The notes below the pieces were generated by a model, which had not been told where the DNA came from, searched no databases, and worked only from the letters and a program-made list of their open reading frames with translations. A stretch of 31,189 nucleotides of DNA from a virus, in the IMG/VR virus record IMGVR_UViG_3300045988_105971, positions 1 to 31,189 of that record; one strand, written 5' to 3'. This document shows positions 1-31,189 of the stretch, one piece after another. The first letter of the stretch is position 1, and every line of letters starts with the position of its first letter. Position numbers and translations under genes: made by a program.

Positions 1-55
1 CACCGCTGCGACCATCATCACGGGCGCGGGCACGTTCATCGGCGCCTGCATCGGC
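1..55. repeat. Terminal direct repeat identical to 31135..31189 (circular-contig closure overlap)
   Basis: The first 55 nt of the window are letter-for-letter identical to the last 55 nt. The length matches a typical assembler k-mer, so the molecule closes into a circle. Confidence 0.9.
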
Positions 56-1179: not shown

Positions 1180-1205
1180 CCAAATTCATGCCAAATTTGC
1201 ACCAA

Positions 1206-1234
1206 CTTTTCACCAGTGCTTTTTGGCGTACAAT
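1206..1234 (+). promoter_or_regulatory. Candidate sigma70-like promoter (TTTTCA - 16 nt - TACAAT) in AT-rich spacer after endolysin
   Basis: TACAAT at 1229-1234 with a weak -35-like TTTTCA at 1207-1212 and an AT-rich upstream stretch. No protein gene lies downstream before the terminator at 1432-1474. Confidence 0.25.
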
Positions 1235-1390
1235 CAGCATTGCTGAAGCCGCTAACGCCTCTGGGCTCGAGCAGGTTCGAGTAGGTTCGAGCTTGTTGTA
1301 CGCAAGTGAAACCTGGCGGCAGGCCATGGTCGATCGATCGAAAAAGACCCAAGGCTTTTAGCCAATCGGCGAATTATCGGCGAATCGACC

Positions 1391-1422
1391 AAAAAAAGAG
1401 CCCGATCTTTGGTCAATCGGGC
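1391..1422 (-). terminator. Rho-independent terminator for the leftward cargo operon
   Basis: On the minus strand, a 7-bp stem (gcccgat / atcgggc) with a 9-nt loop is followed by a run of U (plus-strand aaaaaaa at 1391-1397). It lies just downstream of the 1482 stop of the 271-aa ORF. Confidence 0.6.
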
Positions 1423-1431
1423 AATGAGACG

Positions 1432-1474
1432 GGGCACCTGGCTTTGCGCTGGGTGCCCTTATTTTTTTGTTTGT
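1432..1474 (+). terminator. Rho-independent terminator (plus strand)
   Basis: Stem gggcacc (1432-1438) and ggtgccc (1452-1458) with a 13-nt loop, followed by ttatttttttgtttgt. Confidence 0.6.
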
Positions 1475-1481
1475 GCGGGGG

Positions 1482-2297
1482 TTAGTACATGGTCATGTCA
1501 ATATTGAGCCTCTTGCAGATGTTGACCATTCGCTGCATGTCCCTATCCGAGGCGGTGAGCGGAACTCTTACAGTCGTCGAAGAGCCCCTTGGTGCCGAGG
1601 GCTGCGTGCCATGCTCTGTTGGCTGGCACGGTCCCCTGAATACCAATCCATGTTTCTTTGCCGATGAAGCATGCCTCAGCTTGCCCTCGTCGTCGAACCC
1701 GATGCCATGGCCATCGTAGTTGCCCTCGAACCATGCCTTGCCATTACGGTTGAGCGAGCTTTTCTTTGCCAGTCCGACGACTTCCATGTGGCTATCGCCC
1801 TGACGTAAAATGCAGTACGCATCCGCACCGTCGATCCGGCACCTTACCGCGATGTCACGCCCATTGACGTCTGGCTTCATGCTGGCAATGATGTCGAGCA
1901 ACCTGGTCTCGTGGCTGGGGAAGCCGCTGCTGCACCATGCGTCGTCAACGGGCCCGGGCTCACAGCATGGCTGTTGTTCGGCGCCGCCGTCAAGCTGGCT
2001 GTCTGCACTCAACGCCTCTGCCCACCCGTCTGGATTGTTGTCCGTGACGGCGTATCCCATTCTCCTGGACATGAAGCTGACCGCGCCGATGGACGAGAGG
2101 GCTCCCAGGATGGTGGATGCCTGGTTGCGTGGGATCCCCATATCTTCTTGCATCTCGCCAGAGCGGAACGCCCCATCTCCGTCAGCCGACCACGCTATCC
2201 ATTCGATGGTGTTACGAAGCACGGTGACTGGGATGCCCCTGTGAGACAAAGGCCCGAAGAGCTGCCCGTTCTTTATGTAGAAATCCTTGTTTTGCAT
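1482..2297 (-). CDS. Hypothetical 271-aa cargo (moron) protein, no recognisable domain
   Basis: Begins 6 nt after the stop of the XRE regulator, so it looks like a two-gene operon. G+C is visibly lower than the phage backbone. No signal peptide or TM segment. I found no HExxH, GIY-YIG, Fic or recombinase motif. Confidence 0.6.
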   Translation of the reverse strand: MQNKDFYIKNGQLFGPLSHRGIPVTVLRNTIEWIAWSADGDGAFRSGEMQEDMGIPRNQASTILGALSSIGAVSFMSRRMGYAVTDNNPDGWAEALSADSQLDGGAEQQPCCEPGPVDDAWCSSGFPSHETRLLDIIASMKPDVNGRDIAVRCRIDGADAYCILRQGDSHMEVVGLAKKSSLNRNGKAWFEGNYDGHGIGFDDEGKLRHASSAKKHGLVFRGPCQPTEHGTQPSAPRGSSTTVRVPLTASDRDMQRMVNICKRLNIDMTMY

Positions 2298-2303
2298 ATG
2301 CGG

Positions 2304-2741
2304 TTACCCCTGTTCTTCGCTCACTGTATCCATCAGCCCAGGGAACCCGAACTCCACGTCGAATCCCATCTCCATGAGCATATGTCCTGCGAGCCTGGCG
2401 TTGGCGTTGGCCATCTGCCATTTGGCGGGATCCTCTTCGGGATGAGCACGGGCGTACTCCACCGCATTGCCCCAGTAGCTCAGCCGCACCACCTTCGGTG
2501 TGCCGCGCTCGTCCTCCATGCGCTCAACGGCAGTGATAACCTCGTCAATCGCGCGTATCTGATCTTCACGCGCCTTGATGAGCAGATCCCATGCGAATTC
2601 GCGCGGGGCGTATGCCGTGTTCTCGGCATCCTCCCAGCGCCTAACGCTTCGCGCATCGATGCCGCATTCCTTCGCCACGTGCGCCTGCGTCATGCCCACG
2701 GTTTCGCGAAGTGCGCGGAAGTTTGCTATTGTGTGCTCCAT
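2304..2741 (-). CDS. XRE-family helix-turn-helix transcriptional regulator (candidate repressor)
   Basis: N-terminal HTH_3-like segment LRETVGMTQAHVAKECGIDARSVRRWE. 145 aa. Transcribed divergently from the Cro/Xis-like gene. Confidence 0.75.
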   Translation of the reverse strand: MEHTIANFRALRETVGMTQAHVAKECGIDARSVRRWEDAENTAYAPREFAWDLLIKAREDQIRAIDEVITAVERMEDERGTPKVVRLSYWGNAVEYARAHPEEDPAKWQMANANARLAGHMLMEMGFDVEFGFPGLMDTVSEEQG

Positions 2742-2792
2742 AGCTGCTCCTTTTACGGTTGGAGCCGCCCGAAAGCGGCTCCTTGTGTGCTG

Positions 2793-3047
2793 TTAGATGC
2801 TCTGCTTGTAAGCGTCGAATGTCTTGCGGGCCTGTTTCAACGCTTCCGAATATCCAAGCTCGGTGACGGAGAACTCGCGGCTGCGGGAGTCGCCGCTACC
2901 GGTTACCTCTCCCTGCTCGTCCTCCCACCAGTCGGTGATCTCGACGTTGATGAGGTCGGCGAACTCGCCCTTGTTCAAGCGCTCGATGGTGATCTCGTAG
3001 CAATGGCCGAGGTGGTTTGCCTTGATTGCATCGATGACGTTCTTCAT
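2793..3047 (-). CDS. Small hypothetical protein (84 aa), weak HicB/DUF1902-like pattern
   Basis: First gene of the leftward operon. The pattern CYEITIERLNKGEFADLINVEI resembles HicB-like antitoxin N-termini, but this is tentative. Confidence 0.45.
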   Translation of the reverse strand: MKNVIDAIKANHLGHCYEITIERLNKGEFADLINVEITDWWEDEQGEVTGSGDSRSREFSVTELGYSEALKQARKTFDAYKQSI

Positions 3048-3103
3048 TTCAATCTTCCTCTCTTGGGGCTTGGCGGGCTTCCTTTGCCCTTCCTTATGTC
3101 TCT

Positions 3104-3132
3104 ATTATAGTCCTATGATAGGACTATAGCAA
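3104..3132 (-). promoter_or_regulatory. Candidate leftward promoter (-10 TATAAT at 3104-3109 on minus strand; -35-like TTGCTA at 3127-3132)
   Basis: On the minus strand a perfect TATAAT lies 17 bp downstream of TTGCTA. The 23-bp palindrome sits between and over the two hexamers. The site is about 60 nt upstream of the 3047 start codon. Confidence 0.35.
3106..3128. promoter_or_regulatory. Perfect 23-bp palindromic operator candidate tatagtcctat-g-ataggactata
   Basis: 11-bp arms are exact reverse complements about the central g at 3117. The element overlaps the leftward -10. Confidence 0.6.
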
Positions 3133-3281
3133 GAGAAATCTTTTGCCATTCGCGCCGACCGCGCGCGACCCGTCACCGTCCGTCACCGTCCGACACGGTG
3201 CGACAAAGGTGCGACACTGTCGCGACAGTTCGACGACGCTGTCGTTTGCTTGTCGCTGTGGATAACTTGGTCTGCCTCTTT

Positions 3282-3328
3282 GCCTGTGCAGAAAAATTGT
3301 GAATAAACTGTGCAACTTCTGCACAGGC
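3282..3328. promoter_or_regulatory. Inverted repeat gcctgtgcagaa ... ttctgcacaggc (12-bp arms, 23-nt AT-rich spacer) with TGTGCA half-sites; candidate operator over a rightward promoter-like element
   Basis: Arms at 3282-3293 and 3317-3328 are exact reverse complements. The spacer holds a further ctgtgca copy. TTGCCT (3279-3284), 17 nt, then TAAACT (3302-3307) reads as a weak sigma70-like promoter. Confidence 0.45.
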
Positions 3329-3425
3329 AACCGCGATACCCTGACGCGCTCTGGTATGGTTATGCACGCTGAGGTGCAGCAATGAACGCCTAAGCACAGT
3401 TGGGAACACGTAGGTACGCTCTTCC

Positions 3426-3505
3426 GGTCCGCAGGTGCGCACGGGGCAACCCCCCCCATGAGCCACCTCCATTCAAACGTTTCAACCCGTGCGCACCTGC
3501 GGACC
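3426..3505. promoter_or_regulatory. 20-bp perfect inverted repeat (ggtccgcaggtgcgcacggg / cccgtgcgcacctgcggacc) with 40-nt spacer containing a C7 tract; long hairpin in the leader of the Cro/Xis-like gene
   Basis: 3426-3445 is the exact reverse complement of 3486-3505. The loop contains ccccccc at 3451-3457. The RBS and ATG at 3526 follow immediately. Confidence 0.6.
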
Positions 3506-3525
3506 AGAGAAGGAAAGGAGCAGAC

Positions 3526-3741
3526 ATGGAGCTGACGATGCCCAAGAGGCCGATTGGCAAGCCGATGTACACGGTGCAGGAGGTCGCCCAGCTGGCGGGC
3601 GTCAGCAAGGGAACCGTATACGAGGAGATCAAGCGCGGGAACCTCCAGGCGGTGGTCCGCAGGGGATGCACCCAGGGATACCGCATCAGGAGCGAGGCGC
3701 TGGACAGATGGATCGACGAGCAGTGGACGCCCGTCGTGTAG
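3526..3741 (+). CDS. HTH_17 (excisionase/MerR-like) DNA-binding protein; candidate Cro/Xis-like early regulator
   Basis: YTVQEVAQLAGVSKGTVYEEIKRGNLQAV is a classic excisionase-family HTH. RBS ggaaaggag sits upstream of the ATG. First gene of the rightward early operon. Confidence 0.7.
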   Translation: MELTMPKRPIGKPMYTVQEVAQLAGVSKGTVYEEIKRGNLQAVVRRGCTQGYRIRSEALDRWIDEQWTPVV

Positions 3742-30998: not shown

Positions 30999-31189
30999 AG
31001 ATGGAAGAAGAGAACAAGTACCTGCTGCCCGACAAGGCGTACGACGTGCTGAAATGGGTCGGGCTGGTCGTATGCCCAGCGCTCGCGACGCTGACGCTCA
31101 CCGTCGGCAACGCCGTTGGCTGGGCCGACACCGTCACCGCTGCGACCATCATCACGGGCGCGGGCACGTTCATCGGCGCCTGCATCGGC
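30999..31189 (+). CDS. Holin, N-terminal part (continues across the circular junction to position 88)
   Basis: MEEENKYLLPDKAYDVLKWVGLVVCPALATLTLTVGNAVGW... in frame with 2..88 through the 55-bp overlap. Confidence 0.6.
31135..31189. repeat. Terminal direct repeat identical to 1..55
   Basis: Exact 55-nt identity with the window start. Confidence 0.9.

What the first reader, a model, noticed from the sequence alone, without database searches (positions are those of the whole stretch)
3048..3526. Dense regulatory region: 23-bp perfect palindrome on the leftward -10, TGTGCA-type inverted repeat on a rightward promoter, and a 20-bp perfect inverted repeat with a C7 tract in the Cro/Xis leader
Three separate dyad elements lie between the divergent XRE-operon and the HTH_17 gene. 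The first is tatagtcctat-g-ataggactata (3106-3128), overlapping a perfect minus-strand TATAAT. The second is gcctgtgcagaa/ttctgcacaggc (3282-3293 / 3317-3328) with a third ctgtgca in its spacer. The third is ggtccgcaggtgcgcacggg at 3426-3445, the exact reverse complement of 3486-3505, ending 20 nt before the ATG at 3526. A 20-bp perfect stem is much longer than an ordinary operator. It could be an RNA leader structure controlling translation of the Cro/Xis-like gene, a recombination or resolution site, or a cruciform-forming element. The poly-C7 tract in its loop is a plausible slipped-strand hotspot.
Basis: seen in the sequence. Interest (0 to 1): 0.6.

Follow-up and report, generated by a model that had tools for sequence, protein, structure and literature searches.

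The report
Phage deletion scar with three dyads
The three inverted repeats are real, but they are three unrelated, ordinary elements: an operator for an Aca2-type regulator, leftover binding sites of an old integration site, and a hairpin in front of the first early gene, brought side by side because this gut phage lost its integrase-and-repressor module.

Summary
All three dyads exist at the stated coordinates, and they are the longest perfect inverted repeats in the 31-kb genome. Two corrections: the C tract is C8, and dyad 2 has 14-bp arms.

They do not form one CI/Cro-type switch. The window is a circular phage genome with no integrase, S24 repressor or cro-like gene. Its relatives are tRNA-Arg-integrating prophages that have all three.

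- **Dyad 1 (3106-3128):** the operator of a consensus leftward promoter. The promoter drives a small variable cargo gene followed by an XRE protein with an Aca2 fold. The promoter and half-sites (GTCCTA N2-3 TAGGAC) are conserved in distant cassettes with different cargo genes.
- **3134-3424, including dyad 2:** the orphaned int-distal arm of the ancestral attP. In relatives the same arm runs into the tRNA-Arg 3' half. The TGTGCA motif also recurs in the int-proximal arm, so it is probably an arm-type integrase site.
- **Dyad 3:** a hairpin conserved upstream of the HTH_17 gene in every relative, imperfect there (1-3 mismatches, loop 7-43 nt, C5-C8). Its left base is exactly the deletion junction (CTTC), which resembles the att core.

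The hairpin's function is unresolved. An RNA-level leader structure is the most likely role.

The parts
1482..2297 (-). 271-aa gene of unknown function, third gene of the leftward cassette
   Evidence: ORF. No Pfam, PHROG or PADLOC hit. It travels with the cassette in L150-L159 and L178-L181.
2304..2741 (-). 145-aa XRE/HTH protein with an Aca2/YdiL fold; candidate autorepressor acting on dyad 1
   Evidence: HTH_31 and Aca2_YdiL hits below the Pfam cut-off. Best PDB sequence hit is Aca3. AF2 model has pLDDT 89.8. Top Foldseek hits are Aca2 7ezy/7vjo/7b5j/7vjq and YdiL/SO3848, covering the full length.
2793..3047 (-). 84-aa acidic orphan protein; first 'cargo' gene of the cassette
   Evidence: ORF. 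No family hit. Only 3 other 90% clusters in 5.8 billion proteins. Homologous cassettes carry unrelated genes of 73, 218 or 67 aa in this position.
3048..3103 (-). Conserved 5' leader of the cassette (AAGGAAGGGCAA motif; GGGC..GCCC mini-hairpin with a variable loop)
   Evidence: 80-88% identical in L144, L145/146 and L148/149 although the downstream gene differs.
3104..3132 (-). Leftward sigma-70-type promoter: TTGCTA (3132..3127), 17-nt spacer, TATAAT (3109..3104)
   Evidence: Consensus scan, 10 of 12 matches. The hexamers are conserved in all homologous cassettes.
3106..3128 (.). Dyad 1: perfect 23-bp palindrome, the operator filling the promoter spacer and overlapping the -10
   Evidence: The half-sites GTCCTA N2-3 TAGGAC are kept at the same place in six cassette variants, with a divergent variant (ACGTCCC..GGGCGT) next to a 65%-identical regulator. 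It is the only copy in the window.
3134..3424 (.). Orphaned int-distal arm of the ancestral attP (prophage right-end arm)
   Evidence: 95-98% identical to L156 and L178. There it continues into the tRNA-Arg(TCT) 3' half, then a host terminator and host genes, which is an attR. No similarity to form-A early regions.
3170..3240 (+). Array of 10-11-bp phased direct repeats (CCGTCACCGT x2, CCGACACGGT, GGTGCGACA x2, GTCGCGACAGT, TCGACGACGCT); function unknown
   Evidence: Copy number varies: three GGTGCGACA in L156, two in the window and L178. Absent from the other att arm and from the cI-cro region of relatives.
3280..3330 (.). Dyad 2: 14-bp perfect inverted repeat holding three TGTGCA sites (3285+, 3309+, 3320-). 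Candidate arm-type integrase sites. Also a minus-strand terminator-like hairpin (3326..3308 plus T tract) and a weak rightward promoter candidate TTGCCT(3280)-18-TAAACT(3304)
   Evidence: GTGCA occurs 5 times in the 292-bp arm against 0.6 expected (P = 4e-4). The int-side arm of L132 has 4 against 0.6 expected. attR-type arms carry a fourth site, TGTGCATAAC, which in the window reads TGTGAATAAAC.
3363..3378 (.). Two further degenerate GTGCA sites (CGTGCATAA on the minus strand, GGTGCAGCAA on the plus strand)
3352..3360 (+). Alternative rightward promoter candidate: extended -10 TGG-TATGGT
   Evidence: Own scan. attR-type arms read TACGGT here. Not tested.
3421..3424 (.). Deletion junction, CTTC microhomology: att-arm sequence to the left, early-operon sequence to the right
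   Evidence: Homology to form-A phages L129, L132 and L135 starts at 3421. Identity to attR arms ends after CTTC, the first 4 nt of the anticodon-loop core CTTCTAA.
3426..3505 (+). Dyad 3: hairpin H3, 20-bp perfect stem and 40-nt loop, in the leader of the HTH_17 gene
   Evidence: -57 kcal/mol, z = -6.9. Present upstream of HTH_17 in every relative, in long-loop and short-loop alleles.
3450..3457 (+). C8 tract in the hairpin loop, length-polymorphic among relatives
   Evidence: C7 in L132, C8 in L129 and L135, C5 in the short-loop allele.
3509..3520 (+). Purine-rich ribosome-binding region GAAGGAAAGGAG (SD GGAG at 3517-3520)
   Evidence: Invariant in all relatives. Predicted to pair with the pyrimidine-rich 5' flank of the hairpin.
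3526..3741 (+). HTH_17 (excisionase/MerR-like) gene, first gene of the rightward early block
   Evidence: Pfam HTH_17 E = 5e-13. PHROG 66 'excisionase and transcriptional regulator'. In form-A relatives it is the third or fourth gene of the early operon.

Best explanation
The 480-bp 'regulatory region' is a composite left by a deletion. The window is a complete circular genome (about 31.1 kb) of a phage derived from a temperate ancestor that integrated into tRNA-Arg(TCT). It has lost about 4-5 kb carrying the att core, the int-side arm, the integrase, morons, the S24 repressor, a 73-aa divergent gene, a small ORF and two of three spacer hairpins.

(1) Dyad 1 is the operator of an autoregulated, near-consensus promoter. 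The promoter drives a cassette built like an acr-aca2 operon: a variable small cargo gene followed by an Aca2-fold HTH protein. A dimer of that protein most likely binds GTCCTA N3 TAGGAC between -35 and -10 and blocks RNA polymerase (inferred).

(2) 3134-3424 is the orphaned int-distal arm of the old attP. The TGTGCA sites of dyad 2 are most likely arm-type binding sites of the lost integrase. In this genome they are relics. Two lineage-specific changes in the dyad-2 spacer may have turned the AT-rich patch into the promoter that now drives the early genes (inferred, weak).

(3) Dyad 3 is the last of three hairpins of a conserved non-coding spacer in front of the HTH_17 gene. It most likely acts on the + strand RNA as a leader or intercistronic structure that limits or processes expression of the early block. 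Candidates are partial RBS occlusion, an RNase III-type substrate, or a stability or attenuation element.

The left base of dyad 3 is the deletion end-point. Its left arm (CTTCCGG TCCGCAGGT) resembles the att core (CTTCTAA TCCGAAGGT). The deletion was therefore plausibly made by the phage integrase acting between attP and this secondary site.
For: **Shown**
- The contig is circular: 55-bp terminal repeat.
- tblastn finds no integrase, S24 repressor or 73-aa gene in the window.
- Relatives with an identical or 96-97% identical HTH_17 protein carry int, cI(S24) and the divergent early genes, with the hairpin about 250 nt downstream of a small ORF.
- Homology to those relatives begins exactly at 3421.
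- The same arm, 3048-3424, is joined to the tRNA-Arg 3' half in L156. In the 55-kb chromosomal contig L178 it is followed by a host terminator and by murI/Ham1.
- An intact tRNA-Arg(TCT), the int-side arm and int are present in L014, L132 and L133.
- The GTGCA motif is enriched in both arms.
- The junction sequence is seen in at least 8 independent assemblies made with different assemblers.
- The operator is conserved across six cassette variants with different cargo genes.
- The XRE model matches the Aca2 fold.
- The Aca2 paradigm (TTGCTT-N17-TATAAT promoter, IR1 blocking -35/-10) is described in PMC6765145.
- The hairpin is kept in two alleles, with one compensatory pair (U-A to G-C) and two wobble-compatible changes. 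84.8% of cells are paired, against 29-44% in slid controls.
- The spacer is non-coding, because its indels are not multiples of 3.

**Inferred**
- Binding of the XRE protein, the integrase and HTH_17 to the sites named above.
- The RNA-level role of the hairpin.
- An integrase-mediated origin of the deletion.
Against: - No binding or transcript data exist.
- The XRE protein scores below the Pfam Aca2_YdiL cut-off (18.8 against 23.8 bits), and nothing shows that the cargo is an anti-defence protein.
- The arm-type assignment of TGTGCA rests on motif recurrence only. The same sequence also forms a minus-strand terminator-like hairpin.
- Hairpin covariation is thin. There are effectively two lineages, 13 of 22 pairs never vary, and 6 pairs carry mismatches in some relatives.
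- Predicted SD occlusion is not exceptional: AGGAG unpaired probability is 0.25, against a median of 0.54 and a minimum of 0.22 in 18 other genes.
- The pseudo-core match (12 of 18) is shared by 6 other sites in the genome. Plain microhomology-mediated deletion is therefore not excluded.
- No convincing rightward promoter was found for the early operon.
Confidence: 0.72

Rival explanations
1. One reading: one integrated CI/Cro-like switch in which the XRE protein and the HTH_17 protein act on three operators between divergent operons.
For: The genes are divergent and the dyads lie between them. Dyad 1 overlaps the leftward -10. A weak rightward promoter can be drawn through dyad 2.
Against: - The three dyads share no half-site.
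- Relatives place the HTH_17 gene third or fourth in an operon controlled by a different, AT-rich cI-cro region.
- The XRE cassette with dyad 1 occurs on its own at prophage ends, next to host DNA.
- Dyad 2 and its surroundings are an att arm.
Confidence: 0.08
2. Dyad 2 is (or also was) a lambda tI/sib-like element. Read on the minus strand it forms a terminator for integrase transcripts that cross attP in the circular phage. The longer 14-bp stem would form only on read-through transcripts.
For: The minus-strand hairpin CTGTGCAGAAGTTGCACAG is followed by TTTATTCACAATTTTT. It lies across the att core from the int gene, which is on the minus strand in relatives. The inner (7-8 bp) and outer (14 bp) pairings are mutually exclusive.
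Against: - The same hexamer recurs four times in the int-side arm without any hairpin arrangement.
- A hairpin with T runs (the tRNA terminator) already lies between int and the core.
- There are no transcript data.
Confidence: 0.2
3. Dyad 3 acts on DNA rather than RNA, as a cruciform, a recombination site or a small invertible segment flanked by 20-bp inverted repeats.
For: - The stem is perfect and 20 bp long.
- The deletion end-point sits at its base and resembles the att core.
- One contig (L159) carries the 40-nt loop in the opposite orientation.
- A RusA resolvase gene lies two genes downstream.
Against: - The L159 inversion is at the very end of a low-coverage contig, and the arm length equals k-1 of a common first assembly k-mer. 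A fold-back artefact is therefore likely.
- Relatives tolerate 1-3 mismatches, and two G-U pairs work only in + strand RNA.
- 40 bp is too short for recombinase-mediated inversion (established knowledge of invertase synapsis).
Confidence: 0.15
4. The perfection of the 20-bp stem has no function of its own. An ancestral quasi-palindrome was 'corrected' by template-switch mutation, or the perfect stem arose by drift.
For: Relatives show a stepwise series: GGCCCGC/GCCGACC (two mismatches, L129 and the short allele), then GGTCCGC/GCCGACC (one mismatch, L132 and L135), then GGTCCGC/GCGGACC (perfect, window). Template-switch correction of quasi-palindromes is an established mutational mechanism (own knowledge).
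Against: The same series is equally expected under selection for pairing. The core 14-15 bp of the stem is intact in all long-loop relatives, and a compensatory pair separates the two alleles.
Confidence: 0.25
5. The junction is an assembly chimera, and the window is not a real genome.
For: The junction lies in a short repeat-like sequence next to a palindrome. Coverage of several contigs is low (about 2.5-2.9x in the contig names).
Against: The junction is identical in at least 8 contigs from different studies and assemblers (metaSPAdes NODE contigs, MEGAHIT k127 contigs, Logan). The contig closes into a circle with a complete gene set.
Confidence: 0.03

Closest known systems
acr-aca2 operon promoter of Pectobacterium phage ZF40 (Aca2 autoregulator binding IR1)
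   Same: A small variable gene is followed by an HTH protein with the Aca2 fold. The promoter is strong and near consensus: TTGCTA-N17-TATAAT here, TTGCTT-N17-TATAAT in ZF40. An inverted repeat covers the -35/-10 region and is conserved among loci (PMC6765145).
   Different: - About 18% sequence identity to Aca2, and below the Pfam cut-off.
- The half-site is GTCCTA N2-3 TAGGAC, not TTCG N6 CGAA.
- Only one inverted repeat is seen (no IR2).
- The cargo is an orphan with no shown anti-CRISPR activity.
- A third gene of 271 aa follows.
- The host is an uncultured, high-GC gut bacterium.
attP arms of tyrosine-integrase phages (lambda P1/P2/P'1-3 arm-type sites; tRNA anticodon-loop att cores)
   Same: Multiple copies of one short motif occur in both orientations, 20-140 bp from the core, on both arms. 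The core starts at the 7-nt anticodon loop of a tRNA and runs to its 3' end. The phage carries the tRNA 3' half and a terminator (lambda details from own knowledge).
   Different: In this genome the core, the other arm and the integrase are gone, so the sites are orphans. Binding has not been tested. The phased GCGACA repeats distal to them have no clear lambda counterpart.
Int-promoted deletions of lambda ending at att, and 'ex-temperate' virulent phages (for example S. thermophilus phiSfi21 deletion mutants; Oenococcus phage OE33PA)
   Same: One deletion end-point lies at the att crossover region. The other lies at an internal site with partial core similarity. The deletion removes lysogeny functions and leaves a lytic genome. 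OE33PA is a virulent phage inferred to derive from a temperate ancestor (PMC6256464). The lambda and Sfi21 cases are recalled from memory and were not checked here.
   Different: - This case is seen only in metagenomes.
- The whole int-cI-cro block is lost, whereas OE33PA keeps int and repressor.
- Integrase involvement is inferred from 12 of 18 matches to the core and is not demonstrated.
Leader or intercistronic RNA hairpins of phage early operons (RNase III site in the lambda N leader; REP-like stabiliser hairpins)
   Same: A long, stable stem lies immediately 5' of the ribosome-binding site of an early gene. The stem reaches the roughly 20 bp needed for an RNase III substrate. Its flanks can pair with the SD (comparison from own knowledge).
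   Different: There is no sequence or Rfam similarity and no evidence of cleavage. The loop size is free (7-43 nt), and the loop carries a conserved C run.
C-rich-loop sRNAs of Actinobacteria and Firmicutes (6C RNA, RsaE-type C-rich motifs)
   Same: A stable stem presents a run of 5-8 C in its loop in both alleles. The long loop also carries CACCUCC, which is identical to the anti-SD end of 16S rRNA.
   Different: No Rfam 6C hit even at E = 10. There is a single hairpin inside an mRNA leader, not a stand-alone sRNA with two C-rich loops. This is resemblance only.

Membership tests
Aca2/YdiL-type autoregulator with its operator (dyad 1) | N-terminal HTH plus the Aca2-specific dimerisation domain (overall Aca2 fold) | tested here: met
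   AF2 model with pLDDT 89.8. The top Foldseek PDB hits are Aca2 (7ezy, 7vjo, 7b5j, 7vjq) and YdiL/SO3848, over 127-150 columns, with target-normalised TM 0.65-0.81.
Aca2/YdiL-type autoregulator with its operator (dyad 1) | Sequence membership of Pfam PF08965 (score at or above the gathering cut-off) | tested here: not met
   18.8 bits against a cut-off of 23.8, E = 0.0018. The best PDB sequence hit is Aca3, over the HTH only.
Aca2/YdiL-type autoregulator with its operator (dyad 1) | Encoded downstream of a small, variable gene in one operon | tested here: met
   84 aa here. Unrelated first genes of 73, 218 and 67 aa occur in homologous cassettes.
Aca2/YdiL-type autoregulator with its operator (dyad 1) | Conserved inverted repeat within the operon promoter, covering -35/-10 | tested here: met
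   GTCCTA N2-3 TAGGAC lies between TTGnnn and TATAAT in six variants.
Aca2/YdiL-type autoregulator with its operator (dyad 1) | The protein binds the repeat and represses the promoter; the upstream gene inhibits CRISPR-Cas or another defence system | not testable with these tools
   Needs EMSA or reporter assays and an infection assay. The cargo has no family hit.
Functional attP of a tyrosine integrase | Core sequence identical to the bacterial target (tRNA-Arg from the anticodon loop to the 3' end) | tested here: not met
   The window keeps only CTTC of the core. Relatives L156, L178, L132 and L014 have the full core.
Functional attP of a tyrosine integrase | Repeated arm-type motif on both arms | tested here: met
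   GTGCA-type sites: 5 in the window arm (P = 4e-4) and 4 in the int-side arm of L132 (P = 0.004). Met as a sequence pattern only.
Functional attP of a tyrosine integrase | Cognate integrase encoded by the element | tested here: not met
   tblastn with the relatives' integrase finds nothing in the window.
CI/Cro-type bistable switch | Several related operators shared by two divergent promoters and bound by both regulators | tested here: not met
   There is a single copy of the dyad-1 half-site in the window, and the three dyads are unrelated in sequence. Relatives have a separate cI(S24)/divergent-gene region.
Intrinsic (Rho-independent) terminator | GC-rich stem followed by a U tract on the transcribed strand | tested here: not met
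   Dyad 3 is followed by AGAGAAGGAAAGG, with no T run. Only the minus-strand inner hairpin of dyad 2 meets the pattern.
Described RNA families (Rfam 15, including 6C and phage leader elements) | Covariance-model match | tested here: not met
   No hit at gathering thresholds in the window. None at E <= 1 in form-A loci. Only meaningless miRNA-like hairpin hits at E <= 10.
Structured RNA leader acting in cis on the HTH_17 gene | Base pairing maintained across relatives by compensatory change | tested here: inconclusive
   Of 22 pairs, 1 is compensatory, 2 are wobble-compatible, 13 are invariant and 6 have mismatches. There are effectively two lineages.
Structured RNA leader acting in cis on the HTH_17 gene | Sequestration of the ribosome-binding site | tested here: inconclusive
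   GGAG unpaired probability is 0.02-0.16 with a 200-nt leader in all variants. By the same measure as the controls the value is 0.25, against a control range of 0.22-0.95.
Invertible DNA segment (inverton) | Both orientations of the segment between the inverted repeats present in a population | tested here: inconclusive
   One contig end (L159) has the loop inverted. A fold-back assembly artefact is likely. Read-level data are needed.

The most novel reading that the evidence does not exclude
The left arm of the hairpin is a working secondary attachment site. The phage's own integrase recombines attP with it and cuts out the whole lysogeny block (int, morons, repressor, cro-like gene). This converts a temperate gut phage into the circulating, obligately lytic 31-kb form seen here. 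The early genes of that form would now be driven from the orphaned att arm, where two lineage-specific changes create a -10-like TAAACT. On this reading the hairpin would serve both as an RNA leader and as a built-in break point for switching life-style.
Probability: 0.18. Interest if true: 0.6.

Novelty: new member of a known kind. Interest (0 to 1): 0.36.

Why it matters
The result changes how this region should be annotated. What looks like a lambda-style immunity region is instead a deletion scar that joins three independent elements.

Three practical leads follow:
- **Anti-defence candidates.** An Aca2-fold regulator with a conserved promoter and operator, and with swappable cargo genes next to the lysis cassette, marks candidate anti-defence genes in phages of uncultured high-GC gut bacteria. 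The 84-aa orphan and its 73-aa and 218-aa counterparts are examples.
- **Loss of lysogeny.** This is a natural, repeatedly sampled example of a temperate phage that lost int, repressor and cro by a deletion anchored at the att crossover. It bears on how lytic lineages arise from prophages, and on calling life-style from metagenomes.
- **A testable hairpin.** The hairpin is conserved, carries a C-rich loop, and sits in front of an excisionase-like early gene. Its role could be tested directly.

None of this is a new kind of system.

Tried and rejected
**Searches that found nothing useful**
- Rfam at gathering and E-value thresholds, on the window and on form-A loci.
- DNA and protein searches of the GenBank phage collection. 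The region and the HTH_17 protein have no match, and the terminase reaches only about 34% identity to Firmicutes phages.
- IMG/VR scan with a 15-base piece of the hairpin arm. It returned more than 119 unrelated GC-rich hits and was too unspecific.
- The palindrome pattern, which gave 2 chance hits, and the dyad-2 pattern, which gave none.
- The genome-contig scan with the HTH_17 protein. It found only distant HTH proteins, so the host species was not identified.

**Readings considered and rejected**
- A protein-coding reading of the spacer or hairpin: the 69-70-aa ORF called in L128 and L133, the in-frame TTG extension at 3400, and a 25-codon uORF at 3458-3535. All were rejected. Spacer indels are not multiples of 3, the loop insertion shifts the frame, and the uORF has no SD.
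- Dyad 3 as an intrinsic terminator. Rejected because there is no U tract.
- SD occlusion as a decisive argument. Rejected after the control on 18 other genes.
- GCGACA repeats as repressor operators. They are absent from the cI-cro region of relatives.
- A conserved rightward promoter inside the palindrome (TTGCCC-16-TATAGT). Its -10 is not conserved in homologous cassettes.
Full report
**1. Observation.**

- **Dyad 1** is TATAGTCCTAT-G-ATAGGACTATA at 3106-3128. It fills the 17-nt spacer of a minus-strand promoter, TTGCTA (3132..3127) to TATAAT (3109..3104), which matches the consensus at 10 of 12 positions.
- **Dyad 2** is longer than reported. Its perfect arms are 14 nt (3280-3293 / 3317-3330) with 23 nt between them, and a third CTGTGCA lies at 3308.
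- **Dyad 3** (3426-3445 / 3486-3505) is a perfect 20-bp inverted repeat with a 40-nt loop. It extends to 23 nt with one mismatch.
- **The C tract** is C8 (3450-3457), not C7.

Over the whole 31-kb window these are the longest perfect inverted repeats. In 100 dinucleotide shuffles, a perfect repeat of at least 14 nt appears 0.01 times per genome and one of 20 nt never appears. An 11-nt repeat is common, at 0.83 per shuffle. Dyads 2 and 3 are therefore far beyond chance on length alone. Dyad 1 is significant because of its position and conservation.

**2. What the window is.**

The window has a 55-bp terminal direct repeat, so it is a circular contig of about 31.1 kb. It holds a full set of phage genes:
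- a lysin at 85-1179;
- an early block with HTH_17, RusA, ParB_N, DUF1351, a RecT-like protein and SSB;
- terminase, portal and tape measure genes.

Looking up the exact HTH_17 protein and its two close relatives in public assemblies gave two genome forms.

- **Form A** is a classical temperate arrangement. A 365-aa tyrosine integrase, morons (Abi_2 or NYN), a 178-aa gene and an HTH+Peptidase_S24 repressor lie on one strand. Diverging from them are a 73-aa gene and a 58-66-aa ORF, then a conserved non-coding spacer of about 250 nt, then HTH_17 and the same early genes.
- **Form B** is the window. The lysin is followed by three minus-strand genes (271, 145 and 84 aa), then 480 bp, then HTH_17.

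tblastn with the form-A integrase, repressor and 73-aa protein finds nothing in the window. The form-B junction is identical in at least eight contigs from different studies and assemblers, so it is not a chimera.

**3. Where the pieces of the 480 bp come from.**

I ran BLAST of window 1180-3560 against all fetched loci.

- Homology to form-A phages (L129, L132, L135) begins at 3421. That is exactly the left base of dyad 3.
- The stretch 3042-3133 (promoter, dyad 1, leader) is 80-88% identical to regions upstream of homologues of the 145-aa protein in unrelated contexts.
- The stretch 3134-3420 matches only form-B copies and two other loci.

Those two loci settle its identity. In L156 the same sequence (98% identical) continues past GCTCTTC into TAATCCGAAGGTCGTAGGTTCGAATC. 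In L178, a 55-kb chromosomal contig, it continues into CTTCTAATCCGAAGGTCGTAGGTTCGAATCCTACTGGGCGCGCCA. A host terminator and host genes (Asp/Glu racemase, Ham1-like) follow. That sequence is the 3' half of tRNA-Arg(TCT), starting at the anticodon loop. The intact tRNA, followed by the other att arm and the integrase gene, is present in L014. L132 and L133 begin inside the same tRNA segment.

Window 3134-3424 is therefore the int-distal arm of the ancestral attP, which is the right-end arm of the prophage. The window keeps only the first four bases (CTTC) of the 7-nt anticodon-loop core. There it switches to the sequence that, in form A, lies in front of the hairpin:

- attR: GCT CTTC TAA TCCGAAGGTCG
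- window: GCT CTTC CGG TCCGCAGGTGC
- form A: CTC CTTC CGG TCCGCAGGTGC

**4. Dyad 1.**

The 145-aa protein has HTH_31/HTH_3 hits and a near-full-length Aca2_YdiL hit, all below the Pfam cut-offs. Its best sequence match among solved structures is Aca3. An AlphaFold model built on 12 homologues has pLDDT 89.8. Its best Foldseek matches, over the full length, are Aca2 structures (7ezy, 7vjo, 7b5j, 7vjq) and the YdiL/SO3848 relatives.

Homologues at 57-72% identity sit in the same kind of cassette, usually next to a lysis cassette at a prophage end. The first gene differs, at 73, 218 or 67 aa. The 84-aa protein here is an acidic orphan with only three other 90% clusters.

Across six cassette variants the -35, the -10, the leader motif AAGGAAGGGCAA and the half-sites GTCCTA N2-3 TAGGAC are conserved at the same positions. 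One variant (ACGTCCC..GGGCGT) accompanies a 65%-identical regulator.

This is the architecture described for acr-aca2 operons: a near-consensus promoter (TTGCTT-N17-TATAAT in ZF40), with Aca2 bound to an inverted repeat that blocks -35/-10 (PMC6765145). I conclude that dyad 1 is the autoregulatory operator of an Aca2-type cassette. Binding and the cargo's function are inferred, not shown.

**5. Dyad 2.**

The hexamer TGTGCA occurs three times in dyad 2. It occurs four times within 40 bp in the attR-type arms of L156 and L178, where the spacer reads TTGTGCATAAC. Counting the pentamer GTGCA on both strands, the 292-bp window arm has 5 sites against 0.6 expected (P = 4e-4). The 268-bp int-side arm of L132 has 4 against 0.6 expected (P = 0.004). 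The flanks are similar, TGTGCAGAA or TGTGCATAA (also seen in L014).

One motif repeated in both orientations on both arms, 20-140 bp from the core, is the signature of arm-type integrase sites (lambda P1/P2/P'1-3; own knowledge). That is my preferred reading. In this genome the sites are orphans.

Two alternatives are not excluded.
- The right arm and the internal copy form a minus-strand hairpin followed by a T-rich tract. Because it lies across att from the int gene, it recalls lambda tI/sib.
- The only AT-rich patch that could supply a rightward promoter for the early genes lies here, TTGCCT(3280)-18-TAAACT(3304). The two window-specific changes, C to A and an added A relative to TGTGCAT-AAC, are what create TAAACT.

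A second candidate is TGG-TATGGT at 3352-3360, which reads TACGGT in attR arms. No strong rightward promoter was found. How form B transcribes its early genes is therefore open.

**6. Dyad 3.**

In form A the spacer between the small ORF and HTH_17 is nearly invariant. It is non-coding, because it has indels of 2, 3 and 5 nt. It folds into three long hairpins, of which dyad 3 is the last (z = -3.3 and -4.3). Form B keeps only this last hairpin.

There are two alleles.
- **Long-loop allele:** a loop of 39-43 nt with C7 or C8, and 0-2 mismatches near the base.
- **Short-loop allele:** a loop of 7-8 nt (ATCCCCCG), and 19-bp arms with three mismatches and one G-U.

Counting pairs on nine distinct sequences gave:
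- 84.8% of cells paired, against 29-44% when the partner is slid by 1-3 columns;
- 13 of 22 pairs invariant;
- one compensatory pair (U-A in the long allele, G-C in the short);
- two wobble-compatible changes that pair only in the + strand RNA;
- six pairs with mismatches in some sequences.

The window is the only version with a perfect stem. The series GGCCCGC/GCCGACC, then GGTCCGC/GCCGACC, then GGTCCGC/GCGGACC suggests stepwise repair of pairing. This could have happened by selection or by template-switch correction.

The hairpin is very stable (-57 kcal/mol, z = -6.9). It has no U tract, so it is not a canonical terminator. Its pyrimidine-rich 5' flank can pair with the purine-rich RBS region in all variants. 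By the same measure, however, the SD is only at the low end of the range for 18 other genes of the phage: 0.25 against a median of 0.54 and a minimum of 0.22. No Rfam family matches.

My best reading is an RNA-level leader or intercistronic structure. It could be an RNase III-length duplex, partial RBS occlusion, or an attenuation or stability element. A C-rich loop is conserved in both alleles. This is inference, and I put it at roughly 45%.

**7. The junction.**

The deletion joins two directly oriented sites on the circular form-A genome. These are the att core (CTTCTAA TCCGAAGGT) and the left arm of the hairpin (CTTCCGG TCCGCAGGT). The crossover falls in the shared CTTC, at the left edge of the anticodon-loop overlap region.

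The internal site matches the core at 12 of 18 positions. Only seven sites in the 31 kb, counting both strands, match as well. Given the 4-nt microhomology, 8 further matches out of 14 is roughly a 1-2% event by my own binomial estimate.

This favours an integrase-promoted deletion at a secondary site. Such deletions are known from lambda, and I believe from phiSfi21, though both are recalled and were not checked. Plain microhomology-mediated deletion remains possible. Virulent phages that descend from temperate ancestors are documented, for example OE33PA (PMC6256464).

**8. Verdict.**

Each element belongs to a known kind, so I rate the finding as a new member of a known kind, with interest 0.36.

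The value lies in three things:
- the corrected anatomy;
- the Aca2-type cassette with swappable cargo, as a lead to anti-defence genes;
- a clean natural example of lysogeny-module loss anchored at att.

Noticed in passing
window 1-55 and 31135-31189: A 55-bp terminal direct repeat shows the window is a circularly closed contig of about 31.1 kb. It carries no integrase, S24 repressor or cro-like gene, although close relatives are tRNA-Arg-integrating prophages.
   Followed up: yes
window 2793-3047 (minus strand): An 84-aa acidic orphan protein is the first gene of an Aca2-type cassette. Homologous cassettes carry unrelated first genes of 73, 218 and 67 aa behind the same promoter and leader. 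This makes them candidate anti-defence (Acr-like) cargo. Only three other protein clusters match.
   Followed up: partly
window 3048-3103 (minus strand): The 5' leader of the cassette is better conserved than the coding sequence that follows. It has an SD-like AAGGAAGGGCAA motif and a GGGC..GCCC mini-hairpin whose loop varies between loci. It may be an RNA-level control or stabiliser element.
   Followed up: partly
window 3170-3240: An array of 10-11-bp phased direct repeats: CCGTCACCGT x2, GGTGCGACA x2, and degenerate GCGACA copies including the palindrome TGTCGCGACA. Copy number differs between relatives (three GGTGCGACA in L156). It is absent from the other att arm and from the cI-cro region. 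Candidate binding array for the HTH_17/excisionase-like protein or another factor. Unexplained.
   Followed up: partly
L159 3672-3707 (corresponds to window 3446-3485): One MEGAHIT contig ends with the 40-nt hairpin loop in the inverted orientation, directly after the left arm. This is probably a fold-back assembly artefact at a perfect 20-bp repeat, but it would also be the signature of a real inversion. Read-level data are needed.
   Followed up: partly
L123 3762-4000; L135 2985-3253 (form-A relatives): A non-coding spacer of about 250 nt upstream of HTH_17 is almost invariant among otherwise mosaic phages. It folds into three long GC-rich hairpins with complementary GGGAGGG / CCCTCCC tracts. 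It has no Rfam match. Form B survives without the first two hairpins.
   Followed up: partly
window 3458-3535: A 25-codon ORF starts at an ATG in the hairpin loop, directly after the C8 tract, and ends at a TGA overlapping the HTH_17 start (ATGGAGCTGA). It has no SD and is absent from the short-loop allele, so it is probably not translated.
   Followed up: partly
window 3230-3420 versus L178 and L156: About 13 differences from the attR-type arms are concentrated in the core-proximal part of the orphan arm. There are none in 3040-3199. The pattern fits relaxed constraint after loss of the integrase, or selection for a new promoter.
   Followed up: partly
L178 6340-7709: An IS element (rve transposase plus an HTH gene) is inserted between the 271-aa gene and the lysin in a chromosomal relative. 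L155 and L179 show the lysis and XRE cassettes next to a different 293-aa integrase and a response regulator. This suggests prophage remnants that keep this cassette.
   Followed up: no
L144 93-833: In one relative the conserved promoter, operator and leader lie downstream of the XRE gene and drive a 67-aa gene. This may be a tandem or rearranged cassette. The contig starts just upstream, so the full arrangement is unknown.
   Followed up: no
window 3084-3111 (plus strand): A rightward promoter-like site, TTGCCC-16-TATAGT, shares the palindrome with the leftward promoter. Its -10 is not conserved in homologous cassettes, so it is probably fortuitous.
   Followed up: partly
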